Source: an uncultured Planctomycetia bacterium | GTDB taxonomy: Bacteria > Omnitrophota > Gorgyraeia > Duberdicusellales > 4484-171 | DNA length: 64,000 nucleotides | Reading direction: 5' to 3' | Assembly: GCA_964489445.1 (NCBI GenBank) | Contig: CAZAYU010000002.1 | Coordinates: forward strand, 77,020 to 141,019 | Shown here: piece by piece, positions 9,001 through 27,434 of the stretch | Layout: each line of letters starts with the position of its first letter | Position numbering within the stretch: the stretch's first letter is position 1 | Notes under the pieces: generated by a model | Databases searched by the model: none | Told to the model about the DNA's origin: nothing | What the model saw: the letters and a program-made list of their open reading frames with translations, nothing else | Made by a program: the position numbers and the translations under genes

Positions 9001-12000
9001 AAAAAAATATGGCAAAATAATAAATAAAAAACGTTTTCAAATGATGATGTCTTCCTGGAAAAAGAATAGAAAAACTGCGGTAAGAGAAGTAACCAGAATT
9101 TGCTTTGGTGAAGAGAATATCAACGCGGATGATGAAATATTTTTTTGGGAAAAAGAAAATCGGATAAAAGTGACAAAAATATTGGATGCTGTAGTAAAGG
9201 ATATTATCGGAGAAGGGTTTCATGTGATACCCGAAATCAGGAGGAACAAATTTATTTTGGCTTGTGGCTTAAGAGAGTTATTGGTAAGCGCTAAAGCGGC
9301 TTCTTCCCGGGAACTATTAAAGGAAGCTGGATTGATTCCGGCTGGAAACTGTTTAGATGGCTTAGAAGTAAGTAGCTCTGCGTTGTTTAATTTTGGTTGG
9401 AGGTTGGCTTTACCGGTAAGTAGAGCGATTAATCATTATTCGCTTAAATGCTTTAGAGTAAAGCAGCCAAAAAGCAATTTAATAGTTATTGATGTGAAGA
9501 TAGGAAAGGAAAAAAAAGGATGCATAAAGTCATTAAGTAGCAAGCGTTTGATTTTGTCTGCCGGAGAAAGTTTGCCATTTAAGTCCTGTGAAATAATAGA
9601 TGTTAAAAGTATTGAATTTATCGAAAAAGATAGCCGGAAAAAATCCAGCTCTTCACTTAAAACAATAGGATTTGGTTCATCTGATTTATCGTTTGACAGG
9701 TGTCACAAAGAAGCACAAAGATTAATTAAGACTTTGCAATATAAAGGCATACCCTGGACAGATGCTTATATGCGGGTATTGCCGGAGGTAGAAAAGGTTA
9801 CGAAAAAATATCCGGATAAATGGTTTATATCAGCAATTAATTTGGGTATAGCAATTACAAAAGAAGGTCTTCTTCCTTGCCCAATATTATATTACGGTGT
9901 GGGGCTAGCAGTTATAAGCTCTAATGCAAGCTTTGACCAGTATAAACAAAATCTTAATTGTCTAAAATATTGGGCGGAAGAAATAAGCCGAATTGTTTGG
10001 AAAAATGTAAATGAGGAAGGTGAGAAATATAATTTTAGACAGATAAGCACAACAAAGAGTAAAAATATAATTTGGAGAAATACTGCTTATAGGAAAATAG
10101 ATGATTCGCTAAAAAGTATTGAAGTCAATGGAATAACCAGTTCAAGGCGTTTACGAACTGCGTTGGATGAGTCTTCTGGCTATTCAATAAATTGGCCTTC
10201 CAGTTGTCTAGTTACGTTTTGTAGTGATCAATCCGAGTATAAAAATTACATAATACGTTTTTTATCTAGATGTTTGGGTAATGGGCATTCGAAGAATGTA
10301 AATGTAAAGGAAAGATTGGAAGAGAATGTTTCAAGTTCATCGGTAGAGATAGTATTTAATTCACCAGATTGGGAGGCCATTAGGAATACAGAGCTTTTTT
10401 CTGTAGTTGTGCCTATTTCCGGTCGTACCGATGATTACAATATATTTTATCAAAAGACATATGATTGGCTATTATATTTTTTCCGATTATCTTTGTTTAA
10501 AGAGCAAATCGCAGATTTATTGTCATATACTTTGGCGGAGATATTTCACGATGCAGTAAGAAAAAATTTAGATTTGCGTGCAGCGTATTCACTTTCCGGA
10601 TTTTTTGTTTTGGATAATAGTACAGAATGCGCACCGGTATATTTAAATGCGGAATTTATTCAAAAAGCAAATAGTCAGACTGATTATCAATGGTTGCTTT
10701 CAACTCAGAAAGAATATGCAAAACAAGGTCCGGATTATTTATTAAGTGAAAAGATTCAAAAAAACAGACAAGATATTGATGATGATTTTAGGTATGGATT
10801 AGCGCAATTCGCTAGATTAATTTATGAGTTGCCTTGTTGTCTAAAGTATGCGGTAAGCTCTATAGCGCCTTTTAAAACTACAGTAGAATTTACTGTCAAA
10901 ATTATGAATTTACCTGATTTTGTAGAAAAAGATGTTCCAATTTGTACATTGAAAAAAGAAAAATTGCAAAAAGCAAAAGTGTTACTTACGAGCGAATTAT
11001 CAAAATGGAAGAATCAGTTAGACCTAACTTTAGCGTTTAGCGGGCAAGAAAATCGTGAGCATATTTTTTTCCGTAAAGGTTTAATGCAGTTATCAATGAA
11101 AAATCTTATTAGTTTACGGACATTTGAAGAAATTAGAGAGGTATTATTAAGTGCGCATAAGATTATTTTTAAAATACATGAAAATATCATAACTTTACCA
11201 TCTTTATCAGGAAAAGAAAAACTTAAAATTTCTTCAGGACGATTAGCAAATATAAACTTTAACTGTGCATTTTTAAAGCAATGGCTTGGAGAACTTTTTA
11301 AGGAAATAGAGGTTATTGAAAATATTGGTCATCATTCAAACGGAAAAGCTAAAGTAAGAACACTTTTGCCTAAAAAAGTCAGTTCTTCAATTATGAAAGC
11401 AGAGAAAGAAGCTATTACCTCACTGGCGGTTATTTCTTGTTTGACTAGAGGAGAAGAAGAATTATCTTTGTTGGATACCTCCTTTTATTTCCCGCAGTAC
11501 CTGCGAAAAAAAACAAGCGAATTTGTCTATGGTTCAAATAATCCGGTTTCTTCTTCGGCGGTTAAAAGTAATGAATATTTATTTGGCCTCAAAATCATCA
11601 GCATGAAAATTATTTACTCAGAGAACCCGGAAAGTGTTTTAGAACAAATTCTACAGCTTAGCATGCGTTTTGCGGTTGAAGACGGAGAAATGCTGATGAC
11701 AAAAGAGTATATAAAAGATGAGATCGAAAATGATTCCAAAGATTTCAATTTAGCCTTTGTTGATGCCGCCGGAGTAATTATTGGATATCTTTTGACTCAA
11801 GAATCTCCGCGTCATCCCAATGCCTTGTGGTTTACTTTTATGGGAGTAGAGAAGGAACGCAGGAATAAAGGTTTTGCAAAGATGATGATGAAAATCGCCG
11901 CCTTGAAGGCTGTAGAATATAATATAGAAAGGATAAAATTAGGAGTAAGAAAAGAGAATAAAATAGCTATCGCTATGTATGAAAGATGCGGGTTTCAAAG

Positions 12001-15000
12001 AGATCCAATAACTTATTTTAAAAGCGAAAAAGAGGAAATTAATTTCCAAGATTATTCGGAAACGATGAGTAAAAAATATGGTTTTAAAATGAGCTCTCAA
12101 GATAAAATCACAATTGACGGAGTTGGCTATGAATTTGTGGATTTCTCTGCTGTGCCGTCTGAGATAGTAAAAAGTATAATAAACACTTCGTCGTTAGAAT
12201 TAAACGAGGAATTTAAGGAGTCGCGTATTATTGCCTTTGGTTTAAATTATAACCCTAGATTAACCAGCTTCCTGCGGGTTATAAGCACATTAATTGAAGT
12301 GTATGGGCGCTTTAAGGAAAAAGACATCAGTTTACGAATCGTTCGCCTCTGGGATGAACAGGAGTTGAATTTTGAGAAACCGATAGAGTGCTATACTTTT
12401 CAAATTTCTCATAGTGAGCAAATTAAATTGGTTATCGAGAGCAAAACAAGATCTAAGGAAGCAGTTGTTGAGGCAATGAATATCGTTGCCTGTCTTCTGA
12501 CGCAACCGGAATTTGAAAACGGATTAAACTGTCGTAATGCTCCTGAAAAACAAAAATTCGATGAGCTCTTCCATAAATTTAGAATAATTTTGTCTTTGGA
12601 AGGATCGTCGCCTGATTCTCCTCTTTCTGTTGCTACCGCTGCCTCACCGAAGAGCACTAGCTCGCCTGTTAATAAAAATTGGCGCCAGAAACTTATAAAT
12701 GCCGCAGATGATTTAAGAGTATTAAAATTGGAAGGTATTATTTTAAGCCGGCTTAGTGATTTCGAAAGAACAATACTGCAAAAGCGTACGGAATTTCCTC
12801 CGGTAGATAGAAAAAATGTGGCTGCTGAACTAGGGTATCCAGTATGGAAGGTAGCCAATATTGAGCGAATGCTTTCGGTAAAGGTTCCGGCACTGTTAAA
12901 ATTATGGAAACATGCCGATGCAGTCTTAATAGCATTATTCAACGGCTGTAGGGTAAATATTAATTATATCGGTATAAAAAATATAGATTTGCTCAGCCGG
13001 ATGATTGAACCTGCTGTTCGTTTCAGTAAGAAAGAGACCGAATTAATGAAATTTTTGTGTCAGATTATCGAATACAGAGAACAAAAAAGCAGCGAAATTA
13101 ATAGTCTTATAGTAATCAAAAGAGAAATGTCTTTAGGAATTTTTCAAGTTAAACCATCTACGTGGAGAATATTTGTTCAGAACTTCCGTGGTACAGATGA
13201 TCCTCTTTCTTCATCATCTCTGGTTTTTAGTTCCAGTTTGTCGACGGAAATAGAAGAAGTAATTGCACAGACATTAACGTCTGTCGCCTCGCCGGTGAGT
13301 ATAAGTGAAAAAAGAATCAGGAAAGTAAGAATATTTTTAAAAGAGCACCTTAATCCTAACATCATCGGTATTATAGTACACGGCTCTACAGCTAGAGGTG
13401 ATGCCTTAGAAGAAAGCGATTTTGATTTTGGTTTAATTAAAATAAACGGCGATTTTACTTATGAATTGACTCAGGCGGACCTAGATTTTCACAGAGGGCT
13501 TTTAAGATGTTTGGCACCTGTGAAGGTAGATAACCAGCTTAAACCTCTAATTTGGAAAGGAGAGGAGGCTTTTAATAAATTTGTAAGTTTATATTTTTTG
13601 GAACGCAAATACGCTACTGCCATTGAAGATGTACCGTGGGTTAATAAGCTGGAAGCTTTTATTAAAAGTTACCGCATAATTGCGAGAAACAAAGAGCTGG
13701 AAAATATAATTTATCAAAGAATAGAGGATGCTAGAAAATCGATTATGAAATCTGTACGAAATAAAGAAAATAAAACAGCTTTTACCAGCTCGTCAATAGA
13801 TGGTAGCAAGAGGCAAAGGATTAATAATCTGGCTGAATATAAGAGGCTAATGAAATTGAATGCACAGTTGTTAGTACGAAGTAACACTGTTTCTTCGAGC
13901 TTTCCGGCGGAAAAAGATGGAGAGGTAGAACGCTCTTTGATAAGTGTGGATTCTTTTATGGATTTTACAGGGCCGGTTTATTATCCTGCCAGCGAATTGG
14001 ATTTAGAAAGTATGGTTTGGTTGGCGAGATTATTTCCAAAACTTAAGATGTTGATGTATGTCGATGTTTTGGATCCGGATGAAATGAATGCAGCAACTGT
14101 TTTTAAACCAGAGGAAGATGACGGTGAAGGTGTTAGTGGAGCATTTCGATATTATGGGCCCGACGATATGTCATTATTGCAGCGTCAGATGCAAAATAAA
14201 CTATCTCAATTTCAATATCATAATGAGGCTATTATTGATTACAAAAATACTGGGGTAGATATTATTTCGGTTGAAGACATGGAATTGCTACTTAAGGTAT
14301 CTTTTAAAAGAAACATCAAAAAAGCCCCGTGGCTAAATAGCAGAGTTATAGAAATTAATTTTTTAGTTTGTGATATTTTTGATTACAAAAAAATATTTAA
14401 CGTAATTTATGTTAACTATCCCGGATATTGTGGTGGCTTAGCAAGAGTAGAAGAATTTTGGGTATTAATGCGTAAGCAGATTTCTGAGCAGGGATGTTTG
14501 TTAGAGACAAATATACATCGTAAAACACCTAAAACTAGAGTTTTTAAGAAGAAACTTTTTTCTAAGACGGACCAGATAAAATTAACCCAATATCCGCGCA
14601 TAGATGTTTTACGACCGATAAAAATTATCTCTGCCTCGCCGCTAAACTACTCGAACTTAGCATTGGGTTCAGTAAGAGAATCCAGGGTTAGCTCGACAAT
14701 AAGTCATTGTTCCAAAGTTGTTTCGATAAGAAAATTAACGCTTGCTGATTTTGATGTGTCTAATTACTCATCTTCTTCTGTATCCGCAAGTTCTAATTTA
14801 GTGACAAGTAGTATTCTCGGTAATTTATACAATATGAGAAACATGTTCATTGCGTATCAGGATATTCTTAGTAGTTCCGGGAAGATGATTCAAGCGTGGG
14901 TTAATGAGTCAATAGCTGCTATGTATAAGCCGGATATTAGGTCAAAAGAGATCAGAAGAGCAAAAAAGATTACAGAGCTAATGCCTGATCCTCAAAGAAT

Positions 15001-19488: not shown

Positions 19489-20442
19489 TTGAAAAGTGGA
19501 AAGGTAGATAAATATTTATGGGATGCAAGAATGATTAATAGCATTTATAAGTTATTGGAAGTAAAAGACTTAAGTGTGCAATTTTCCCAGGGTAAAAAAA
19601 ATGTTAAAGCAGTAGACGGGGTGAATTTTTTTCTTCAAAAAGGAGTTATTACCGCTTTAGCCGGTGAGAGTGGATGTGGGAAAACTACACTGGCAAAAAC
19701 AATTTTAAAATTTCATAAACCGGCTGGAGGAAAGATATACCTAAATAGTAGAGACATTACATTAAAAAGTAATGAGCGGTATTTAAGAAAAAATATTCAA
19801 GTTGTTTTTCAAAATCCGTTTTCTAGCCTTGATTTCCGGTATTCTATTTTTTCCTCTCTTTATGAATCTTTATCCGTATTTAAAAAGATAAAAAAAGATC
19901 AAGCCGAAGAAATTATTGTAAAATCGTTAAACGATGTAGAATTAGATAAAGGGATAATGCTTCGCTATCCGCAGCAATTAAGCGGAGGACAGGTACAAAG
20001 AGTGTGTATTGCCCGTGCTTTAATCAACAAGCCTTCTTTAGTCATTCTAGACGAGCCGACATCAAGCTTAGATGTAACTACTGCTTCCAAAATTGTTAGG
20101 TTGCTTGCGAAAATACAACAGGATTCAGGCGTTACTTTTTTATTTATTTCACATAACTTGCGGCTTTTAAAGAAAGTTTCTGATTTTTGTTTTATTATGT
20201 ATGCGGGTAAGGTTGTAGAGTTTGGTCCTAAGCAGCTGGTCTATGATAATCCGCTTCATCCTTATACTAAACTTTTGATGGAAGCCTCTTACTATAGATT
20301 AAAACGTTTTAAAGATTCAAAGGTTTCTTTAAATGGATGTTCTTTTTCTTCGCGCTGCACCTACCAAGAGGATAAATGCTCAAAGGAATCCAACTTCAAG
20401 GAGGTAGAGCCAGGTCATTTTGTCTCTTGCTGTCTTTTTTAA
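19489..20442 (+). CDS. Oligopeptide/dipeptide ABC transporter ATPase, OppF-like, with a Cys-rich C-terminal extension. The start may be the internal ATG near 19531.
   Basis: Walker A GESGCGKTT, LSGGQVQR, ILDEPTSSLD. The C-terminus contains CSFSSRCTYQEDKCS...CC. Confidence 0.8.
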   Translation: MKSGKVDKYLWDARMINSIYKLLEVKDLSVQFSQGKKNVKAVDGVNFFLQKGVITALAGESGCGKTTLAKTILKFHKPAGGKIYLNSRDITLKSNERYLRKNIQVVFQNPFSSLDFRYSIFSSLYESLSVFKKIKKDQAEEIIVKSLNDVELDKGIMLRYPQQLSGGQVQRVCIARALINKPSLVILDEPTSSLDVTTASKIVRLLAKIQQDSGVTFLFISHNLRLLKKVSDFCFIMYAGKVVEFGPKQLVYDNPLHPYTKLLMEASYYRLKRFKDSKVSLNGCSFSSRCTYQEDKCSKESNFKEVEPGHFVSCCLF

Positions 20443-20471
20443 CCATCTTCCACCTTGAAGGTGGAAGATGG
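20443..20471. terminator. Perfect 14-bp-arm palindrome CCATCTTCCACCTTGAAGGTGGAAGATGG immediately after the oppF-like stop, followed by TTGTTGTG. Likely an intrinsic terminator and a member of a repeated palindromic element family.
   Basis: The reverse complement is identical except for the single central base. It starts 1 nt after the stop codon at 20440..20442. Confidence 0.55.
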
Positions 20472-20488
20472 TTGTTGTGACTGAAGGT

Positions 20489-20566: not shown

Positions 20567-21199
20567 ATGAGATTAGAATTTTTTGAAAACATTAATATTC
20601 CTGCGCCTAAAGAGAAGATTTATTTGCGTTTGGGATTTTCCAAGCAAAATACACAATTATCCACCGATGAATTCCTAAAGTATGAAGCAGATATTAATTC
20701 GGCCTTAGAAAAAATAAGTTTAAAAGGCTCGTTGGTGATTCTGGATATAAAAAATAATGATGGCAAAAAAATTATGCTAGAAGGAAATATTGGAATAGAA
20801 AGTAGTCGTTTGGCTAAATTTTTAGGTGAATGCTCCGAGCTTATTTTTATCGGGATAACTGCTGGAAGTGATATAATAAAAATGATAAATATCGAGCAAA
20901 TTAGTAAAAATTTAAGCAAAGCGGTAGTCCTTGATGCAGTAGCTAGTGAGATGGTTGATTTTGCTTTGGGTTGGGTTGCCGGACGTAAAGCAAAAGATCT
21001 AAGACGACAAAACAAATTTATTACTGAGCAAAGAATGTCAGCAGGGTATGGTGATTTTAATATCCAATATCAAAAAGTTATTTGTGAATTATTAAAATTA
21101 GACAGATTAGGCGTGCAATTAACGCAGAGCTATATTCTTGATCCTGAGAAGTCGGTTACTGCAGTCTATGGAGTTAAACAAGAACATATTAATAAATAA
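20567..21199 (+). CDS. Stand-alone activation (AdoMet-binding/reactivation) domain of cobalamin-dependent methionine synthase.
   Basis: About 210 aa with the RMSAGYGDF (RxxPGYGD-like) motif, encoded immediately upstream of a MetH core that lacks this domain. Confidence 0.55.
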   Translation: MRLEFFENINIPAPKEKIYLRLGFSKQNTQLSTDEFLKYEADINSALEKISLKGSLVILDIKNNDGKKIMLEGNIGIESSRLAKFLGECSELIFIGITAGSDIIKMINIEQISKNLSKAVVLDAVASEMVDFALGWVAGRKAKDLRRQNKFITEQRMSAGYGDFNIQYQKVICELLKLDRLGVQLTQSYILDPEKSVTAVYGVKQEHINK

Positions 21200-21217
21200 G
21201 GGTGAGTGTAGAGTATT

Positions 21218-23614
21218 ATGAAAAAAATTGATCAAATACTAAAACAAAGAGTGTTGATTTTAGACGGTGCCGTCGGAACTCAATTGCAAAAAATGGGGCT
21301 TCCTTGCGGAGTTTCTCCGGAAATTTGGTGTGTTCAGAATCCGAATATATTAATGAAATTGCATCAAGAATATATTCAGTCCGGCTCAGATGTTATTTAT
21401 ACTGCAACTTTTGGCGCAAACAGAATTAAATTGGCACAGTTTGGCTGTAAGTCGGTGCCTGAGATAAATAATCAGTTAGCGTTAATTGCTAAAAAAGCTG
21501 CTGGTAAAAATGCTTTAGTTGCCGGAGGTATCGGGCCAACGGGTGAGTTAATCGAGCCGTTTGGAAATTTAAAATTTGAAGAGGCAGTTAATATTTTTAA
21601 AGAGCAAGTTAAAAGTTTATTGAAAGCTGGTGTTGATTTTTTTGTTATTGAAACAATGATCGATATTCAGGAGGCTCGTGCTGCGTTAATTGCGGTTTCG
21701 GAATTAACGGATAAGTTTAGGATGGTAAGTATGACTTTTGAGCCCGATGGAAATACTTTGGGTGGAACACCGCCTGAAGCAGCATTGATTACTTTGCAAA
21801 GTTTAGGGGCCAGTGCTTTTGGTTGTAATTGCTCAACCGGACCTGAGGCGATGGTTGATATTATCAGAAAAATAAAGCCGTATGCGACAATTCCGTTGTT
21901 AGCAAAACCGAATGCCGGTTTTCCCAGATTGTCCGGTGGTAAGACTATTTTTACTATGAATTCTAAAGAATTTGCTAAATATTCAGTGGATCTGGTTAAA
22001 GCTGGTGCTAATATTTTGGGTGGCTGCTGTGGAACTGATCCCGAATATATTAAGGCATTAATAGAAAAAATAAAACATATTAAGCCGAAAGAAATTAGGC
22101 AAAAGAATTTATCAGCATTATCTTCGGCCCGAAAAAGCATTATTCTTGGAGATAATATGCCTTTGGTGGTTGTTGGTGAGTGCATTAATCCTACCGGAAA
22201 AAAAGAATTGAGTTCGCAGCTTAAAAAAGGTCAAATATCATTATTAAGGGATTTAGCTAAGCAGCAACAGCAGAAGGGCGCAGACATTTTAGATGTTAAT
22301 ATTAGTGTCGGTCAAATAGATGAACAGAAATTAATAATTGATGTTGTTTCTGCGTTGAGTAATGACACACATTTACCGTTGGTAATTGACTCATCGACAC
22401 CGGAAGTTATTGAAAAATTTTTAAGGCTTTATCCAGGAAGAGCGTTGATTAATTCTATTTCTGCAGATAACCAAAAGATGAAAAAATTGCTTAATATAGC
22501 TTCTCGGTATGGGGCAATGTTTATTTTGCTTCCGATTAGCGGGAAAAATATTCCGAAAAATTTACCAGAAAAGAAAAAAAATATTAATACTATTATTCGG
22601 GAAGCAAAAAAAGTTGGATTTAATAAAGATGGTTTTATAATTGATGCTTTAGCCTTGTCAATTTCTGCAAATCCTAATTCTGCTTATGAAATATTGGAAA
22701 CAATTAAATGGGCAAAAGAAAATGGACACAAAACAGTAATTGGATTGTCTAATGTTTCGTTTGGAATGCCGCAAAGGGCATTGCTGAACTCCACCTTTCT
22801 TATTTTAGCGCGGAGTAAGGGTTTAGATTGTGTTATTGCTAATCCTTTATCTAGTGAAGTTACAAACGCAAAAAAAGCAGTTGATTTATTATTGCGGGAA
22901 AAAGGAGCCAACAAAAGGTTCTTCCAAAATGTAAACGATAGATTGTTAATTATTCCGGATGTAAAAAATCTTAATCAAGTAGAGAAAGAAATTTATCAGC
23001 TTATTTTAGAAGGTCGGAAAGAACAAATTAAAAAAGCAATAAATAAAGCGGTGGCTAATGGTGTAAAAGCACAGTCTTTAATTGATAAAGTATTAGTTCC
23101 GGCGCTTGAGCAAACCGGAAAACTTTTTGATCAACGGATTTATTTTTTACCCCAATTAATTTCTGTTGCTGAAACCGCAAAAATTGTTTTTGGGCTTCTT
23201 CAGGCAAAACTTAAAACTAAAAAAACAATAGCTAAAAAAGCAATAGTTATTTTAGCAACAGTCAAAGGAGACATCCACGATATCGGGAAGAATATTGTTG
23301 CCTTGATGTTGGAAAATTACGGGTTTAAAGTAATTGATTTAGGAAAAGATGTTTCCGCAGAAAAAATTATTAACGCGGCTATTTTTTATAAAGCTTCACT
23401 TATTGGTCTTTCGGCATTAATGACGACTACAATGATAAATATGAAAGATGTAGTAGAATTAGCTAAAACAAAAAAAATAGAATGTAAGTTCTTAATTGGT
23501 GGGGCGGTAGTAACTCAAAATTATGCTAAAACCTTAGGTGCTGAGTATGCATCGGATGGCTTGGAAGCGGTGAGAGCGGCGAAGAGACTGGTGAAAAGTA
23601 CTAAGATAGGATAG
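21218..23614 (+). CDS. metH: Cobalamin-dependent methionine synthase core (Hcy S-methyltransferase, pterin-binding and B12-binding domains). It lacks the activation domain.
   Basis: N-terminal Hcy-binding barrel (ILDGAVGTQL...GGCCGT), a pterin-binding segment (VVGECINPTGKK), and the B12 DxHxxG motif GDIHDIGKNIV plus the SAL/GG motifs. Confidence 0.85.
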   Translation: MKKIDQILKQRVLILDGAVGTQLQKMGLPCGVSPEIWCVQNPNILMKLHQEYIQSGSDVIYTATFGANRIKLAQFGCKSVPEINNQLALIAKKAAGKNALVAGGIGPTGELIEPFGNLKFEEAVNIFKEQVKSLLKAGVDFFVIETMIDIQEARAALIAVSELTDKFRMVSMTFEPDGNTLGGTPPEAALITLQSLGASAFGCNCSTGPEAMVDIIRKIKPYATIPLLAKPNAGFPRLSGGKTIFTMNSKEFAKYSVDLVKAGANILGGCCGTDPEYIKALIEKIKHIKPKEIRQKNLSALSSARKSIILGDNMPLVVVGECINPTGKKELSSQLKKGQISLLRDLAKQQQQKGADILDVNISVGQIDEQKLIIDVVSALSNDTHLPLVIDSSTPEVIEKFLRLYPGRALINSISADNQKMKKLLNIASRYGAMFILLPISGKNIPKNLPEKKKNINTIIREAKKVGFNKDGFIIDALALSISANPNSAYEILETIKWAKENGHKTVIGLSNVSFGMPQRALLNSTFLILARSKGLDCVIANPLSSEVTNAKKAVDLLLREKGANKRFFQNVNDRLLIIPDVKNLNQVEKEIYQLILEGRKEQIKKAINKAVANGVKAQSLIDKVLVPALEQTGKLFDQRIYFLPQLISVAETAKIVFGLLQAKLKTKKTIAKKAIVILATVKGDIHDIGKNIVALMLENYGFKVIDLGKDVSAEKIINAAIFYKASLIGLSALMTTTMINMKDVVELAKTKKIECKFLIGGAVVTQNYAKTLGAEYASDGLEAVRAAKRLVKSTKIG

Positions 23615-23720
23615 GATTAAGAGATAAGTGAAGAAAACGATGGACGATAGATGGCGGAAGAGGGACGATAGAGAGAAAGGATAAAGGAAAAAGTAAAAAA
23701 TAGAGAATCTTAAAACTTAT
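23600..23720. repeat. GA-rich intergenic element, copy A (GATAGGATTAAGAGATAAG...GATGGACGATAGATGGCGGAAGAGGGACGATAGAGAG).
   Basis: Purine-rich. Motifs shared with copies at 17400..17560 and 25700..25770. Confidence 0.55.
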
Positions 23721-23834
23721 GTTAGAAGGAAAAGAAGCAGAAAAAAAAGTTATAAAGTAGCAATTATCTACATAATCTATATAAAATGAGTTTAATAAAA
23801 AAGAAGTATAGTATTTGAGTTAAATTTTTTAATT

Positions 23835-23880
23835 TATCCTTTATCCTTGAACCTTTAACCTTTTTATCAATCAGCCAATA
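23835..23880. repeat. CT-rich element (TTTATCCTTTATCCTTGAACCTTTAACCTTTTTATC), partner of the element at 25838..25885.
   Basis: Shared TTTATCCTTTA and CTTGAACCTTTANCCTT cores. Partly complementary to GGATAAAGG in the adjacent GA-rich tract. Confidence 0.5.
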
Positions 23881-23891
23881 ACAGGGGGAGA

Positions 23892-24842
23892 ATGAAAAAA
23901 GGTGTTTTAAAAATCAGCTGTTTAAGTATATCTCTTTTATTGTGTTTTGTATCTATTCCGATATTTGGTGCAGGATCAGGTGTTCCGGAAGAAAAAATTA
24001 CAATTATTACTTATTATCCTGCACCTTTTGGTGTATACAATGAATTACGTTCTAGGAAAATGGCAATCGGCGATGAATACGTTGATAATGCCGGAGACTA
24101 TTGCTGGCAAGGAGAAGGATGCTCAAACGAAATACCTGAAAATATTCGCTTGCAGGTAAACACTCCTGGTTCCTATTTGTCAATCGGAGAAATGACAATT
24201 GCAGGAGGTAGTGCCAGAGGTCTACATATTGGCACTACACATGACCTTAGCGGTAAAGGCGGAGGCATCTGGTATACAACAAACACTTCAGGAGGTAATT
24301 TGTCTGTTGCCAGCACTGATTATATGAGTATCGATACCTCTGAAGACCCTACCACCGGTAGACAATACCCAATCAGAATGCAAACCTGGAGCGACTCCGG
24401 AAGCTGGAAATTGGGTAATGTAGGTATTGGAACGGTAACTCCCCGAGCAGTTTTAGATGTTGCATCCACTACCAGCGGTTTTGTTCCTCCGCGGATGTCT
24501 GCTTTCCAGCGTGATGTTATTTCTAGTCCTGTAGAGGGCTCAATGGTTTATGTTAATGACCCAACAGTTAAGGAGTACAACTACTATGATGGAGTCAGTT
24601 GGCAGGCGTTAGGGGGAGGCGGAGGTTGTTATGTAGACTATAGTCGACCTGGGGGGCAACCGGTAGGAGCAAGCTGTTCAGTAAGTGGATTTACTATCAG
24701 GGCTTCGCTTGGTTCCTGGGGGTTTTGTAGCAGTTATATTTCTGGAGAGAGTGCAGCAGCTTATTTCCTTCCACCAGGTGGTTCATGTTATTCTGGTACA
24801 ACTTCTAAGCCTTATAGTTACGCTTATCTTTGTTGTGAATAG
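23892..24842 (+). CDS. Secreted Gly/Ser/Thr-rich protein with a Cys-rich C-terminal module (8 Cys in the last 90 aa, ending CCE).
   Basis: N-terminal signal peptide MKKGVLKISCLSISLLLCFVSIPIFGAGSG. The internal motif pair GNVGIGTVTPRAVLDV...PRMSAFQRDVISSPVEGSMVYVND is reminiscent of widespread tail-fibre/lectin-like exported proteins. Confidence 0.6.
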   Translation: MKKGVLKISCLSISLLLCFVSIPIFGAGSGVPEEKITIITYYPAPFGVYNELRSRKMAIGDEYVDNAGDYCWQGEGCSNEIPENIRLQVNTPGSYLSIGEMTIAGGSARGLHIGTTHDLSGKGGGIWYTTNTSGGNLSVASTDYMSIDTSEDPTTGRQYPIRMQTWSDSGSWKLGNVGIGTVTPRAVLDVASTTSGFVPPRMSAFQRDVISSPVEGSMVYVNDPTVKEYNYYDGVSWQALGGGGGCYVDYSRPGGQPVGASCSVSGFTIRASLGSWGFCSSYISGESAAAYFLPPGGSCYSGTTSKPYSYAYLCCE

Positions 24843-24909
24843 TTATTTATTTTGTTTCTTGGGAACATACTTAGTGTTTTTTTGCTTAATAGACTTATTT
24901 AAAAGAGTA

Positions 24910-25701
24910 ATGATTAGTAAGCGCTTATGTTGTATTTTGATTTTTTTTGCCTTTATTTTTCCGGTTTTTGCTTGGCAAGTTGAAACACTTCAAACCGATA
25001 GTCCTAAACAACAATTAACTATTAATCTAGTTTTTGCGCCTTTAGATTATTCGGGAAAAGAGGAAATTAAGGAGGATGTTTCTTTAATTACTACACGTTT
25101 AAAAAGTATTTTTCCGTTTAATGAATTTAATGGTTTTCGGTTTTTTTTATTAATATTTGATGGGCAAAAGTCGGGTGACATATTTGAAGAGAGTAAGACT
25201 TTTCCTTATCTCAAAATAAATAATGATTTTATTCAAGAATTAAATGATGAAATCAGGGGAAATTATAAATTAGTAATTTTGAATAAACAAGGAAATGCTA
25301 GCGGTGCCGAGTTGTCAAATATAAATGAGACCTCGATTATAATTTTAGGGAAAAACAGTTTTGGAGAAAAGAATCGATTAGCTAAAGCGTTTTTACATGA
25401 GTTTGGGCATAGTTTGGGTTTAAGAGAAGAAAATCCAACGAGCATTCAGGAAATTATCCCCGGAAAACCAAATTGTGCTTTAAATAAGAACATTGCGGTT
25501 GAGTGGTGGGGTGAGATAGCCGAAGAAAATAGTGGAGTAGATTATTTTGAGATAAAGTCAAACGATAAAATATTTATAAAACCGACTTTGCGTTCAATAA
25601 TGAATGACCCGTTTAAGTCTTACGGTTATGGACCGGTGAATGAGCAATATTTATGTGAAGAACTGGAAATTGAGAGAGATAGAGGAAACTATGGAAGATA
25701 G
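24910..25701 (+). CDS. Secreted HExxH zinc metallopeptidase-like protein.
   Basis: Signal peptide MISKRLCCILIFFAFIFPVFAWQ and the HEFGHSLGL zincin motif. The start was moved to the ATG at 24910; the track ORF beginning at 24685 overlaps the upstream gene in another frame. Confidence 0.6.
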   Translation: MISKRLCCILIFFAFIFPVFAWQVETLQTDSPKQQLTINLVFAPLDYSGKEEIKEDVSLITTRLKSIFPFNEFNGFRFFLLIFDGQKSGDIFEESKTFPYLKINNDFIQELNDEIRGNYKLVILNKQGNASGAELSNINETSIIILGKNSFGEKNRLAKAFLHEFGHSLGLREENPTSIQEIIPGKPNCALNKNIAVEWWGEIAEENSGVDYFEIKSNDKIFIKPTLRSIMNDPFKSYGYGPVNEQYLCEELEIERDRGNYGR

Positions 25702-25770
25702 ATGATGAAAGAGGGACGAAAAAGTAGAGGAGAAAAGAATAAAAAATAAAAAAGTAAGAGAAAACCGGAT
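25700..25770. repeat. GA-rich intergenic element, copy B (GATGATGAAAGAGGGACGAAAAAGTAGAGGAGAAAAG...).
   Basis: Shares AGAGGGACGA with copy A. Confidence 0.5.
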
Positions 25771-25772
25771 TG

Positions 25773-25794
25773 CCACCTTCAAGGTGGAAGATGG
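25773..25794. repeat. Second copy of the palindromic element (CCACCTTCAAGGTGGAAGATGG).
   Basis: Exact 22-nt match to the reverse complement of the 20443..20471 element. Confidence 0.6.
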
Positions 25795-25837
25795 ATAATC
25801 ATTGACGTGTTACATATTTTATTGAATTTATTTTCTG

Positions 25838-25885
25838 ATTTATCCTTTAATCTTTAATCTTGAACCTTTATCCTTGAGAACTGTT
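25838..25885. repeat. CT-rich element (GATTTATCCTTTAATCTTTAATCTTGAACCTTTATCCTTGAGAA), partner of the element at 23835..23880.
   Basis: Direct-repeat relationship with the CT-rich element upstream of the secreted cassette. Confidence 0.5.
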
Positions 25886-25955
25886 TAACTAATTCTGGTA
25901 GCAGGTTTCTGGTTCCTGATAGTAATTACCCAATTTATCCGGCTACGTATTTAGT

Positions 25956-25984
25956 TTGACAGGGTAGAGGTTAGTATATATAAT
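25956..25984 (+). promoter_or_regulatory. Perfect-consensus sigma-70 promoter TTGACA-N17-TATAAT immediately upstream of lysS.
   Basis: -35 at 25956..25961, -10 at 25979..25984. The predicted transcription start is about 25991, only 3-4 nt before the lysS ATG at 25995. Confidence 0.55.
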
Positions 25985-25994
25985 CGTAAGCACT

Positions 25995-27434
25995 ATGGAA
26001 ACTGAAGAAAAACTTAATAGAATTAAGAAGGAATTTGGAAATCCATTTTCTGAAAACTACTTTTCTAAACCATTGCTGGCCAATGAGATATTATCTGCAT
26101 TTGAAGAGGGGAAAGTAGTTTCGTTTGCTGGAAGGCTAATTACGAAAAGAGAACACGGAAAGTCTGGTTTTGCTCATTTAAGTGACGAAAGCGGAAAAAT
26201 ACAAATTTATGCCCAGGCGAATGCATTAGGAGCCGGTTTTCAATTATTTAAGGAATTAGATATTGGAGATATTATTGGGGTAAGCGGTGAGCTATTTAAA
26301 ACTAGAACTGGGGAATCAACAATAGTAGTCAAAGAAATAAAATTGCTTTCTAAGGCTTTGAGACCGCTGCCGGAAAAGTGGCACGGGCTAAAAGATGTTG
26401 AAGTTCGTTATCGTCAACGATATTTAGACTTGATTGCTAATCCGGATTCAAGAGATGTGTTTATTAAACGCTCAAAGATTGTTTCTTTAATCCGTGATTT
26501 TTTTAATAACCGGAAATTTACCGAAGTAGAAACTCCAATGCTTCATCCTCTTCCCGGAGGTGCAGCCGGCAAACCATTTGCGACACATCATAATGCTACC
26601 GACGCACAAGTTTATTTACGAATAGCTCCGGAGCTTTATCTTAAGCGCTTGCTAGTCGGCGGATTAGAGAAAGTGTACGAAATCAATCGGAGTTTTCGTA
26701 ACGAAGGGGTGTCTACTCGGCATAATCCGGAATTTACAATGCTGGAAGCGTATTGTGCCTACAATAATTATGAATACATGATGAATACTTGTGAGGAGTT
26801 ATTTTTATTCCTTATCAAGGAGATGGGATTAAATACAGTTTTGGAATATCAAGGGAAAAGGATAGATTTTACTTCTCCTTGGCCGAGGATTTCGTTTGCG
26901 GAGTTATTCAAGAAAGAATTTGATATCAACCCGGATGATTCACAGGAGGTTATGGTTGAAAAGATTAGCAAGAAATTGAAATTGTCCCAGGGATTAAGTC
27001 GTAGTCAAATATTGAACATTACTGAAGAGTTAATTGAAAAAAATTATCCGGATGATAAACCAGCGTTTATTACTGATTTTTTTACCTGGACTTCTCCATT
27101 AGCTAAGAATAAGAAGGATAATCCGGACATTGTGGAGAGGTTTGAATTATTTATTGCCGGGCTAGAAGTAGCTAATGCTTATTCGGAGTTAAATGATCCA
27201 GTAGAGCAAAGAAAAAGATTTAAAAAACAGTTAGATGTTGAAGAAGAATTGCCTAAAAAAATAGATGAAGATTTTTTATTGAGCTTAGAATACGGAATGC
27301 CGCCGGCCACCGGGCTGGGGATTGGTATTGATAGATTAGTAATGATTATTTTAAACCAGCCTTCAATAAGAGATGTGATCCTTTTTCCTCTCCTCAAAAA
27401 TAAAGAGAATGACGGCGCAGAGAATAGAGAGTAG
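25995..27434 (+). CDS. lysS: Lysyl-tRNA synthetase, class II.
   Basis: N-terminal OB fold plus class-II core motifs (FRNEG, GxGxGxDR). Full-length 479 aa. Confidence 0.9.
   Translation: METEEKLNRIKKEFGNPFSENYFSKPLLANEILSAFEEGKVVSFAGRLITKREHGKSGFAHLSDESGKIQIYAQANALGAGFQLFKELDIGDIIGVSGELFKTRTGESTIVVKEIKLLSKALRPLPEKWHGLKDVEVRYRQRYLDLIANPDSRDVFIKRSKIVSLIRDFFNNRKFTEVETPMLHPLPGGAAGKPFATHHNATDAQVYLRIAPELYLKRLLVGGLEKVYEINRSFRNEGVSTRHNPEFTMLEAYCAYNNYEYMMNTCEELFLFLIKEMGLNTVLEYQGKRIDFTSPWPRISFAELFKKEFDINPDDSQEVMVEKISKKLKLSQGLSRSQILNITEELIEKNYPDDKPAFITDFFTWTSPLAKNKKDNPDIVERFELFIAGLEVANAYSELNDPVEQRKRFKKQLDVEEELPKKIDEDFLLSLEYGMPPATGLGIGIDRLVMIILNQPSIRDVILFPLLKNKENDGAENRE

What the first reader, a model, noticed from the sequence alone, without database searches (positions are those of the whole stretch)
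23600..25994. Two-gene secreted cassette (Cys-rich exported protein plus HExxH peptidase) bracketed by copies of a composite repeat
Between metH and lysS, in otherwise housekeeping surroundings, sit a signal-peptide protein with a Cys-rich C-terminal module and a signal-peptide HEFGHSLGL zincin. Both flanks carry the same ordered set of elements: a GA-rich tract, then a CT-rich TTTATCCTTTA...CTTGAACCTTTANCCTT tract. The right flank also has the palindrome. This looks like an inserted accessory module, a possible exported effector or toxin plus a processing protease, delimited by direct repeats.
Basis: partly seen in the sequence, partly recalled or inferred. Interest (0 to 1): 0.65.

Follow-up and report, generated by a model that had tools for sequence, protein, structure and literature searches.

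The report
Orphan retroelement-target fibre plus peptidase pair
The two genes are a copy of a gene pair conserved in Omnitrophota bacteria: an exported fibre protein whose cysteine-rich tip is the part that mutagenic retroelements (DGRs) rewrite in related genomes, followed by a small exported zinc peptidase. Here the pair has no retroelement nearby, and it is flanked by members of a dispersed intergenic repeat family rather than by insertion scars.

Summary
ORF1 (23892-24842) and ORF2 (24910-25701) both have Sec-type N-termini. ORF1 ends in a Cys-rich module and ORF2 carries HEFGHSLGL. Both flanks carry a GA tract followed by a CT tract.

The interpretation needs revising.

- **ORF1 tip.** It is homologous to the variable region that diversity-generating retroelements (DGRs) hypermutate in related Omnitrophota. 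In L021, 13 of 14 template/variable mismatches sit at template adenines.
- **ORF2.** It is a compact M64-like metallopeptidase. Of 31 informative loci, 27 encode an ORF1-like protein next to it, and 6 also carry reverse transcriptase and Avd.
- **This window.** It has no RT, Avd or template repeat in 64 kb. ORF1 is the same protein on 10 contigs, so the pair looks like a frozen orphan.
- **Synteny.** Two relatives join oppF directly to lysS, so the stretch holding metH and the pair is extra here.
- **Flanking repeats.** They are two diverged copies (76%) of a GA-rich mosaic element. Four copies were found in about 116 kb, all beside fibre-family genes. Each flank copy is closer to a copy elsewhere than to the other flank. 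The CT tract is an inverted partial copy of the element.

There is no toxin domain, integrase or tRNA. Function is inferred.

The parts
23598..23725 (+). GA-rich mosaic intergenic element, copy 1. It lacks the hairpin/promoter module and overlaps the last codons and stop of metH.
   Evidence: nhmmer with the 4-copy profile gives E 7e-21. Alignment A5. 86% identity to the L015 copy and 76% to copy 2.
23824..23863 (+). CT tract, copy 1. It is an inverted partial copy of the A-rich middle of the GA element and ends 28 nt before the ORF1 ATG.
   Evidence: Family D1 at 83%. Inverted repeat I1, 23677-23701 with 23824-23848, is 92% complementary. Minus-strand match to L059 7814-7843 at 87%.
23892..24842 (+). 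ORF1, 316 aa. Order of parts: Sec-type signal peptide; invariant TYYPAPFGVY motif; variable beta-rich middle; PTL_trimer-type module (residues ~174-246, 24411-24629); Cys-rich tip (residues ~244-316).
   Evidence: (precomputed PF26696). The module at residues 174-246 is found in 15,796 representative proteins.
24705..24839 (+). The part of ORF1 equivalent to a DGR variable region: SLGSWGFCSSYISGESAAAYFLPPGGSCYSGTTSKPYSYAYLCCE.
   Evidence: It aligns with verified variable regions of L021, L024 and L011. No template copy exists in the window. The 3' end 24600-24860 shows 100% nucleotide matches in the fetched loci L005 and L006 in the part of the output that was displayed, and all six loci L001-L006 carry the same tip peptide.
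24910..25701 (+). ORF2, 263 aa. An exported compact M64-like zinc metallopeptidase with HEFGHSLGLREE at 25396-25431 and a conserved SIMN Met-turn candidate. The last 9 codons (25675-25701) come from the GA element.
   Evidence: Family alignment A3 has H163, E164, H167 and E174 invariant and M231 nearly invariant. AF2 pLDDT is 86.5. Foldseek top hits are the M64 structures 4df9, 9qdi, 3p1v and 9i4z. DNA homology to L011 stops at 25674.
25655..25810 (+). GA-rich mosaic element, copy 2. It includes the hairpin CCACCTTCAAGGTGG inside a promoter-like TTGCCA-N18-GATAAT (25770-25799).
   Evidence: nhmmer E 1e-34. Promoter scan scores 10 of 12. The same module lies 29 nt upstream of the P0003 ATG in L015. 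Contigs L005 and L006 end at 25798.
25830..25877 (+). CT tract, copy 2 (inverted partial copy of the GA element).
   Evidence: Minus-strand match to L059 at 90% over 30 nt.
25956..25984 (+). The lysS promoter itself (TTGACA-17-TATAAT), ending 10 nt before the lysS ATG. It marks the right-hand limit of sequence not shared with relatives.
   Evidence: 12 of 12 match. Homology with the sister contig L061 begins at 25944, and the same promoter is seen in L062 and L064.
20439..20473 (.). 33-nt perfect palindrome AACCATCTTCCACCTTGAAGGTGGAAGATGGTT just after the oppF stop. It shares 22 nt with the hairpin of GA element copy 2 and marks the left limit of the 5.5 kb absent from relatives.
   Evidence: Relatives lack it in their oppF-lysS spacer.

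Best explanation
Identity of the two genes:
- ORF1 and ORF2 are one copy of a two-gene module conserved in Candidatus Omnitrophota.
- ORF1 is a Sec-exported protein that resembles a trimeric tail fibre. Its order of parts is signal peptide, invariant YYPAPFG motif, variable middle, PTL_trimer-type module, then a roughly 70-residue Cys-rich tip ending in CC[EQK].
- In related genomes, the last ~43 residues of this tip are the variable region rewritten by a diversity-generating retroelement (reverse transcriptase, Avd and an adenine-rich template repeat).
- ORF2 is a Sec-exported minimal M64-like zinc metallopeptidase. It is nearly always encoded directly behind such a tip protein, often with overlapping or abutting reading frames.

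State of this copy:
- RT, Avd and the template repeat are missing here, and the tip sequence is fixed across samples.
- So this copy is a frozen ('orphan') target-plus-peptidase pair, not an active hypermutation locus.

Inferred working model (not shown):
- The fibre tip is the ligand-binding part.
- The peptidase works with it outside the cytoplasm, most likely on whatever the tip binds. Alternatively it matures the fibre.

Location and flanks:
- The pair lies in a 5.5-kb stretch (with a split metH) that relatives lack between oppF and lysS.
- The flanking 'composite repeats' are two old, diverged members of a dispersed GA-rich mosaic intergenic element. This element accompanies fibre-family genes in this genome.
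- The element carries a promoter-like TTGCCA-N18-GATAAT wrapped around a hairpin. The CT tract is an inverted fragment of the same element.
For: Tip homology to DGR variable regions (shown):
- ORF1's closest homologues share the tip.
- In L021 the tip-coding 129 nt (6000-6128) has a template copy at 7248-7373. 13 of 14 substitutions fall at template adenines, and AAC codons are prominent.
- The same holds in L044 (11 of 12), L034 (11 of 16) and L011 (9 of 15).
- L021 RT matches RVT_1 at 1.9e-17 and its Avd matches bAvd at 8.6e-23.

ORF2 family and pairing (shown):
- The family comprises 24 clusters plus 34 genome loci, almost all from Omnitrophota.
- Of 36 distinct family genes, 31 are informative. 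27 have an ORF1-like neighbour and 6 have RT plus Avd.
- Typical gaps between the two genes run from -27 to +400 nt, though a few are larger. L012 has two tandem pairs.
- The nearest ORF2 relative (80% identity, L011) sits in a decayed DGR locus.
- Fold: AF2 pLDDT 86.5; Foldseek E 1e-8, probability 1.0, TMq 0.65-0.68 against M64 structures.
- H163, E164, H167 and E174 are invariant and M231 is nearly invariant.

Orphan state (shown):
- No RT, Avd or template repeat is detectable in the 64-kb window.
- The ORF1 protein is one sequence on 10 contigs.

Extra DNA at this locus (shown).

Repeat family (shown).
Against: - The tip fold is unresolved. The ORF1 model has pLDDT 67 overall and 58-84 in the tip, with no PDB match. 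Neither a C-type lectin fold nor a new fold can be claimed.
- No physical or functional link between ORF1 and ORF2 was tested. It rests on gene neighbourhood alone.
- Only 64 kb of the genome was searched. A DGR elsewhere could still act on ORF1 in trans.
- Consensus assemblies can hide minority variants.
- ORF2 itself does not reach Pfam M64. Its motif is HEXXHXXGXXE, whereas the family's is HEXXHXXXGXXD.
- Three of the four repeat copies come from loci that were fetched because they hold fibre genes. Those loci are assumed, not proven, to belong to the same genome (GC 0.357-0.359 against 0.345).
Confidence: 0.7

Rival explanations
1. A mobile accessory cassette (toxin or effector plus its processing protease) inserted between metH and lysS, with the flanking direct repeats created or used by the insertion.
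For: - The pair is absent from the oppF-lysS junction in two relatives.
- Both flanks share ordered repeats.
- The right-hand element abuts the exact point where ORF2 homology ends.
Against: - The flanks are 76-83% alike, and each is closer to the L015 copy than to the other flank.
- No recombinase, transposase or tRNA is present.
- GC3 is host-like.
- No toxin domain was found in Pfam, NCBIfam or PADLOC.
- metH is itself part of the extra DNA, so 'between metH and lysS' is not the ancestral junction.
Confidence: 0.12
2. ORF1 is an active DGR target, diversified in trans by a retroelement encoded elsewhere in the genome.
For: - The tip is homologous to verified variable regions.
- The motif TG(T/C)TG(T/C)..(A/G)TAGTT, which spans the stop codon, is kept as in active loci.
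- Most target-peptidase pairs lack RT within the flanks fetched, up to 8 kb each side and often less because the contigs end. Remote targeting could therefore be common.
Against: - The protein is identical on 10 contigs from several samples. The 3' end is nucleotide-identical in the fetched loci whose hits were displayed, L005 and L006.
- No template repeat, RT or Avd is found in 64 kb.
- Third codon positions in the variable-region equivalent are 28 T against 4 C of 45. Active loci show NNC codons. This is weak evidence because the genomes differ in GC.
Confidence: 0.12
3. A prophage remnant: a phage tail fibre with an associated peptidase left behind after prophage decay.
For: - The paralogue P0013 matches many phage tail-fibre families and carries the S74 chaperone domain.
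- ORF1 residues 174-251 weakly match phrog_1417.
- DGRs are often phage-borne (PMC8144416).
Against: - Both proteins have Sec-type signal peptides.
- No other phage genes lie nearby.
- Family members sit singly inside housekeeping operons.
- The ORF2 family has no PHROG match, and nearly all its genome hits are named Omnitrophota MAGs.
Confidence: 0.05
4. The GA and CT tracts form a structured RNA (leader, riboswitch, small RNA or stabiliser) in which the GA arm pairs with the CT arm.
For: - In both flanks the minimum-energy fold pairs the GA tract with the CT tract.
- The 25-nt arms are 92% complementary.
Against: - Folding energy is no better than for shuffled sequence (z -0.40 and +0.26).
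- There is no Rfam match.
- The L015 copy has no CT arm.
- In L059 the CT-like sequence lies in the GA strand itself.
Confidence: 0.1

Closest known systems
DGR variable (target) proteins such as Bordetella phage Mtd or Treponema TvpA
   Same: - The C-terminal ligand-binding tip is homologous to regions that, in related loci, show template/variable repeat pairs with adenine-specific changes, next to RT and Avd.
- The variable part is at the extreme C-terminus of an exported, fibre-like protein.
   Different: - This copy has no RT, Avd or template repeat nearby and does not vary between samples.
- The tip is only about 70 residues with 8 Cys. It is not demonstrably a C-type lectin fold, which is the fold reported for essentially all DGR variable regions (PMC8144416).
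- Known DGR accessory genes are not peptidases. This last point is from my own knowledge.
M64 metallopeptidases (Thomasclavelia ramosa IgA protease, B. fragilis BF3526, BACOVA_00663)
   Same: - They are the best structural matches, covering the whole ORF2 model.
- They share a HExxH helix followed by Gly and an acidic ligand.
- More distant family members reach weak Pfam PF09471 hits.
   Different: - ORF2 is about 240 residues when mature. It lacks the extra beta domains that M64 enzymes use for substrate recognition (TMt only 0.20-0.46; PMC12402451).
- Its motif is one residue shorter and uses Glu (HEFGHSLGLREE against HEXXHXXXGXXD).
- It falls below the Pfam threshold.
REP/BIME-type or MITE-like intergenic mosaic repeats
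   Same: - It is a short dispersed intergenic element with a hairpin module and inverted partial copies.
- It sits at gene 3' ends and sometimes supplies the stop codon.
- It breaks metagenome assemblies.
   Different: - Only four copies were seen in about 116 kb, and all are beside one gene family.
- It is strongly purine-rich on the coding strand.
- It carries a promoter-like module.
- No associated transposase was seen, and no target-site duplication was looked for.
Phage tail fibres with an S74 intramolecular chaperone
   Same: - They share GNVGIGT-type repeats and a trimer module.
- The paralogue P0013 ends in Peptidase_S74.
   Different: - ORF1 has a Sec signal peptide, a Cys-rich tip in place of S74, and a cellular, non-phage context.

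Membership tests
DGR target (variable protein) | A variable region with a cognate template repeat that differs almost only at template adenines | tested here: not met
   No second copy of ORF1's 3' end is found in the 64-kb window. The feature is met in the homologous loci L021, L044, L034 and L011.
DGR target (variable protein) | DGR reverse transcriptase and Avd encoded nearby | tested here: not met
   tblastn of the L021 RT and Avd against the window gives nothing below E 0.38.
DGR target (variable protein) | Homology of the C-terminal domain to a domain shown to carry a variable region | tested here: met
   Alignment A6 has invariant C, Y, G, C, P, C and CC columns shared with the L021, L024 and L011 targets. 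P0002 is 49% identical.
DGR target (variable protein) | Hypervariation of the variable region within populations | tested here: not met
   One protein sequence is found on 10 contigs. The 3' end shows 100% nucleotide matches in the fetched loci displayed (L005, L006), and all six loci L001-L006 carry the same tip peptide. Read-level data were not available.
Peptidase family M64 (PF09471) | Pfam PF09471 match above the gathering score | tested here: not met
   ORF2 has only weak Reprolysin_3 (E 0.028) and DUF4932 (E 0.068) matches, both below their gathering scores. The L021 homologue scores 23.1 bits against a cut-off of 26.
Peptidase family M64 (PF09471) | Catalytic motif HEXXHXXXGXXD (PMC12402451) | tested here: not met
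   ORF2 has HEFGHSLGLREE, which is HEXXHXXGXXE: one residue shorter, with Glu for Asp. The paper notes that some M64 clusters use Glu.
Peptidase family M64 (PF09471) | M64 catalytic-domain fold | tested here: met
   Foldseek against PDB: the top 17 hits are all M64 structures, E 1e-8 to 2e-6, TMq 0.58-0.68. The model has pLDDT 86.5.
Peptidase family M64 (PF09471) | Zinc-dependent peptidase activity | not testable with these tools
   This needs a biochemical assay.
PTL_trimer (PF26696) | Match to the Pfam model | tested here: inconclusive
   The databases' precomputed annotation lists PF26696 for the identical protein P0001. The local Pfam copy returned no hit and appears to lack the model. No paper mentioning the name was found.
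Mobile cassette bounded by insertion-generated direct repeats | Flanking repeats that are each other's closest relatives, identical or nearly so | tested here: not met
   The flank copies are 76% (GA) and 82.5% (CT) alike. Each GA copy is 86-89% identical to the L015 copy.
Mobile cassette bounded by insertion-generated direct repeats | A recombinase or transposase, or a tRNA attachment site | tested here: not met
   No tRNA is found in the window. The neighbouring genes are opp, metH, lysS, lolCD and ilvE.
Mobile cassette bounded by insertion-generated direct repeats | Presence/absence polymorphism at the site | tested here: met
   oppF abuts lysS in L062/L063 and L064/L065. These are different species (lysS 76-77% identical), not strains.
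REP/BIME- or MITE-like dispersed intergenic repeat | Several dispersed intergenic copies with a hairpin module and mosaic structure | tested here: met
   There are four copies plus a lone hairpin, with inverted partial copies.
REP/BIME- or MITE-like dispersed intergenic repeat | High genome-wide copy number, and terminal inverted repeats with target-site duplication | not testable with these tools
   The genome is in neither searchable contig collection. Only about 116 kb could be read.

The most novel reading that the evidence does not exclude
The conserved pair is a two-component 'programmable' extracellular protease. A DGR-diversifiable, disulfide-rich mini-domain at the tip of a trimeric fibre supplies substrate or target recognition in trans. 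This mini-domain would be a variable-region scaffold that is not a C-type lectin. A minimal M64-like catalytic subunit lacks the recognition domains of its relatives and relies on the fibre. The peptidase would then be a new class of DGR accessory gene, and Omnitrophota would use the system on host or prey surfaces. The copy in this window would be a fixed-specificity version.
Probability: 0.15. Interest if true: 0.85.

Novelty: new variant of a known kind. Interest (0 to 1): 0.55.

Why it matters
- DGR targets are described as C-type-lectin-fold binding proteins. The known accessory genes are Avd and a few nucleic-acid-related domains.
- This lineage-wide pairing joins a small Cys-rich variable tip to a dedicated secreted metallopeptidase. 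It would add a possible new variable-region scaffold and a new, enzymatic partner.
- That would point to how ultra-small, probably host-dependent Omnitrophota recognise and act on other cells.
- RT-less pairs appear to be the majority. This raises a testable question: are they fossils, remote targets, or a module that works without diversification?
- For this window specifically the result is more modest. The pair is an orphan copy, and its 'bracketing repeats' are a dispersed regulatory or recombinogenic element, not an insertion scar.

Tried and rejected
**Tried, with no useful result**
- Pfam and NCBIfam on ORF1 returned nothing.
- PADLOC returned nothing for either protein.
- Rfam on 23400-26200 returned nothing.
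- RNA folding of both flanks gave z-scores near 0, so a structured-RNA reading has no support.
- A metagenome scan with the GA core (GATAGATGNNGNAAGAGGGACGA) found only an unrelated organism of 0.48 GC with a long GA tract after a tRNA-like sequence, plus one chance-like hit. The window's genome is in neither that collection nor genome contigs.
- No paper was found for 'PTL_trimer', for DGRs in Omnitrophota, or for a DGR-peptidase link.

**Considered and rejected**
- L011 (ORF2 homologue) and L061 (lysS 90%) come from one sample. I tested whether they are adjacent pieces of one locus. They do not overlap, and the partial gene before lysS in L061 is none of ORF2, metH or oppF.
- A remnant of a fibre-gene 5' end in the right flank. 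The only evidence is a 16-nt match at 81% that is not collinear, which is treated as chance.
- Foreign origin of ORF1 inferred from its GC. This is rejected because GC3 is host-like.

Full report
**1. Observation**

The region holds two co-oriented genes between metH (21218-23614) and lysS (25995-27434).
- ORF1 (23892-24842, 316 aa) starts with a basic and hydrophobic Sec-type N-terminus. Its last 73 residues hold 8 Cys and end in LCCE.
- ORF2 is best read from ATG 24910 (263 aa). Public gene calls use the same start. It also has a Sec-type N-terminus (…FPVFA/WQ) and carries HEFGHSLGLREE.
- Signal peptides were judged from sequence features and from their conservation in all homologues. No SignalP run was possible.

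The flanking repeats are real.
- GA tract: 76% over 72 nt. CT tract: 82.5% over 40 nt (blastn E 2e-7 and 3e-5).
- Exact TTTATCCTTTA occurs nowhere else in the window.
- The palindrome pattern CCACCTTSAAGGTGG occurs exactly twice in 64 kb, against 0.04 expected for up to 2 mismatches. The two copies differ at the centre base.

**2. Organism and neighbourhood**

Homologues are named Candidatus Omnitrophica/Omnitrophota.

The window runs in this order:
- a giant ORF of at least 5300 aa (89-15991);
- oppBCDF;
- a 33-nt perfect palindrome;
- a 210-aa gene similar to the MetH activation domain;
- metH, ORF1, ORF2, lysS, lolCD, ilvE, mcsAB.

Two related genomes (lysS 76-77% identical) keep the order giant gene, PilZ x2, oppBCDF, lysS, lolCD, ilvE, mcsAB, clpC. 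In them oppF is followed by lysS after 61-74 nt. The window therefore carries about 5.5 kb that these relatives lack at this position, and metH is part of it.

A closer relative (lysS 90%, L061) has yet another gene ending 62 nt before lysS. Its DNA homology to the window begins only at 25944, which is the lysS promoter. The space upstream of lysS is thus variable between species.

**3. What ORF1 is**

ORF1 has five parts:
- a signal peptide;
- an invariant TYYPAPFGVY..L motif;
- a variable, low-confidence beta-rich middle;
- a module at residues ~174-246 (GNVGIGT…STTSGFVPPRM…EGSMVY…YYDG.SW);
- the Cys-rich tip.

The module at 174-246 is the best-predicted part (pLDDT ~90). It is very common: 15,796 representative proteins match at E<=1e-3, and it is often repeated 5-10 times in proteins of 2,000-4,000 aa. 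The databases' precomputed annotation calls it PF26696 'PTL_trimer'. My local Pfam copy lacks that model.

Paralogue-like genes from the same sample series share the signal peptide and the N-motif but end differently. P0013 ends in the tail-fibre S74 chaperone and matches many phage tail-fibre families. ORF1 is therefore a tail-fibre-like exported protein with an exchangeable tip.

**4. The tip is a DGR variable-region homologue**

The locus of ORF2's nearest relative (L011; ORF2 80% identical) starts with P0002, which is ORF1's best homologue. The 3' end of P0002 is repeated about 400 nt downstream. Of 15 differences, 9 fall at adenines of the downstream copy, which encodes …GCNSGWNSNDIGTAYVCCQ.

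Better-preserved loci settle the point:
- L021: tip-coding 6000-6128 against the copy at 7248-7373, 13 of 14 substitutions at template adenines;
- L044: 11 of 12;
- L034: 11 of 16.

Between target and template, L021 encodes a 351-aa RT (RVT_1, 1.9e-17), with a bAvd (8.6e-23) further downstream. These are textbook diversity-generating retroelements.

The variable region is LGSWG.C…F.PPGG.C…G..[YC][LV]CC[QEK]*. It aligns column for column with ORF1 residues 272-316, with invariant Cys, Gly and Pro positions.

In the window there is no second copy of this DNA and no RT or Avd. The protein is one sequence on 10 contigs. The 3' end shows 100% nucleotide matches in the fetched loci that were displayed, L005 and L006, and L001-L006 all carry the same tip peptide. 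I therefore read ORF1 as a frozen, orphan version of a DGR target. A trans-acting element elsewhere in the genome is not excluded.

The fold of the tip could not be established. At about 70 residues with 8 Cys it is small for a C-type lectin fold, which is the fold reported for DGR variable regions (PMC8144416).

**5. What ORF2 is**

ORF2 belongs to a small, sharply defined family: 24 clusters in 5.8 billion proteins, and 34 loci in 185,579 species genomes, nearly all Omnitrophota.
- H163, E164, H167, G170, E174, P187-N-C-A and W200 are invariant.
- W199 and S229-x-M231 are nearly invariant.
- The AF2 model is good (pLDDT 86.5).
- Its 17 best PDB matches are all M64 peptidases (BF3526, BACOVA_00663, T. 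ramosa IgA protease). E runs from 1e-8 to 2e-6 and TMq from 0.58 to 0.68. Other metzincins follow far behind.

It is not a formal M64 member.
- There is no Pfam hit above threshold.
- The motif is HEXXHXXGXXE, not HEXXHXXXGXXD (PMC12402451).
- It lacks the extra beta domains of M64 enzymes.

**6. The pair is a conserved module**

I called ORFs in all fetched loci and flagged ORF1-like proteins by phmmer, by the YYPAPxG motif and by the CC end. Among 36 distinct ORF2-family genes, 31 have readable surroundings.
- 27 of the 31 have an ORF1-like gene beside them. It is usually directly upstream, with gaps typically from -27 to +400 nt.
- 6 have RT plus Avd within 3.5 kb. Typical orders are target-RT-Avd-peptidase, Avd-RT-peptidase, or peptidase-target-RT.
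- One locus has two tandem target-peptidase pairs.
- A few loci place a NosD-like beta-helix protein between Avd and the peptidase.

The conserved core is therefore tip protein plus peptidase, and the retroelement is an optional addition. I found no paper describing this.

**7. The flanking repeats**

The GA tract is part of a 110-200-nt purine-rich mosaic element.
- A third copy lies upstream of the fibre gene P0003. That gene sits between kdsA-like and kdsD-like genes (L015).
- A fourth copy lies upstream of P0013. That gene sits between rnfB-like and rseC (L059).
- A profile built from the four copies finds nothing else in about 116 kb, apart from the lone palindrome after oppF.

The element ends in AAACCG.ATTGCCACCTTCAAGGTGGAAGATGGATAAT. 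This reads as a sigma-70-like TTGCCA-N18-GATAAT with the hairpin in its spacer. In L015 it sits 29 nt before the fibre gene's ATG.

The L059 copy contains, in the purine strand, AAGGTTCAAGAATAAAGGTTAAAGGA. This is the reverse complement of the window's CT tract. The CT tract is therefore an inverted fragment of the same element.

Further properties:
- The two flank copies are less alike (76%) than either is to the L015 copy (86-89%).
- The element supplies the stop codon of metH and the last nine codons of ORF2. Homology with the sister ORF2 gene ends exactly at 25674.
- Several metagenome contigs break at the element or in the shared 5' part of ORF1.

These are old members of a dispersed family that travels with, or regulates, fibre-family genes. 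They are not a duplication made by one insertion. Their function as a promoter or operator, or as a recombination substrate, is inferred only. The structured-RNA alternative has no support.

**8. Composition**

ORF1 GC is 0.433 (z +4.7 against 33 other genes), but its GC3 is 0.306 (z +1.1). The excess reflects its richness in Gly, Ser, Thr, Ala and Pro, not foreign codon use. ORF2 is ordinary at 0.322.

**9. Mechanism**

Shown:
- homology of the tip to DGR variable regions;
- the M64-like fold and intact catalytic residues of ORF2;
- tight, lineage-wide gene pairing;
- absence of the retroelement in this window.

Inferred:
- The fibre tip binds a ligand.
- The peptidase acts with it outside the cytoplasm. 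I think it most likely acts on what the tip binds. The peptidase lacks recognition domains of its own, and tandem duplicates keep a 1:1 pairing.
- A role in maturing the fibre, for example at the Pro-rich N-motif, is the main alternative.

**10. Verdict**

The feature is a new variant of a known kind. For this window it is of moderate interest. The family-level pattern it reveals is of more interest.

Noticed in passing
window 89-15991 (+): A giant ORF of at least 5300 aa, open at the window start. At the same syntenic position, relatives have genes called at 14,105 and 25,853 residues (L062, L063).
   Followed up: no
window 25956-25994; L061 ~110-152; L062/L064 ~6960-7000: lysS has a perfect TTGACA-17-TATAAT promoter ending 10 nt before its ATG, and this is conserved in three related genomes. 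This suggests a leaderless or nearly leaderless lysS mRNA.
   Followed up: partly
window 20439-20473: A 33-nt perfect palindrome, AACCATCTTCCACCTTGAAGGTGGAAGATGGTT, lies directly after the oppF stop. It shares 22 nt with the hairpin of the GA element. It has no T-run, so it is not a canonical terminator.
   Followed up: partly
window 20567-23614: Methionine synthase is split into a 210-aa ORF with a weak match to the activation domain (Met_synt_B12, E 2.5e-4) and a 798-aa MetH lacking that domain. The whole block is absent between oppF and lysS in two relatives.
   Followed up: partly
L011 972-1325: A decayed DGR. The RT is reduced to a 99-aa N-terminal fragment that runs straight into the remaining 3' part of the template repeat. 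The template/variable pair also shows non-adenine changes and a 6-nt indel.
   Followed up: partly
L012/L030 2187-5200: Two tandem tip-protein plus peptidase pairs in one locus, next to a DUF772 transposase-like gene and an ATPase. The two tip genes share 80-85% identical stretches without adenine bias, so they are paralogues rather than a template/variable pair.
   Followed up: partly
L010 589-1416; L011 1823-2638; L036 1-477: In some DGR-linked loci a signal-peptide NosD/beta-helix protein is encoded between Avd and the peptidase. It may be a second kind of partner or target.
   Followed up: no
L054-L058 (e.g. L054 ~5150-5450, minus strand): An unrelated organism of 0.48 GC has a purine tract of about 180 nt right after a tRNA-like sequence. 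The tract is rich in GGATATCAGG and GATGGACGAGGGACGA, and it shares the 23-nt core of the GA element.
   Followed up: no
L015 8001-8951; L018 8001-9302; L059 8001-9638: Fibre-family genes sit singly and co-oriented inside housekeeping gene strings: kdsA|kdsD-like, trpS|scpA, and rnfB|rseC. This looks like insertion into operons. The P0009 locus has only a degenerate GA-rich tract downstream.
   Followed up: partly
proteins P0205-P0212 and others: The ORF1 module at residues 174-246 is repeated 5-10 times within proteins of 2,000-4,000 aa in public data. It is therefore a common building block of very large fibre-like proteins.
   Followed up: no
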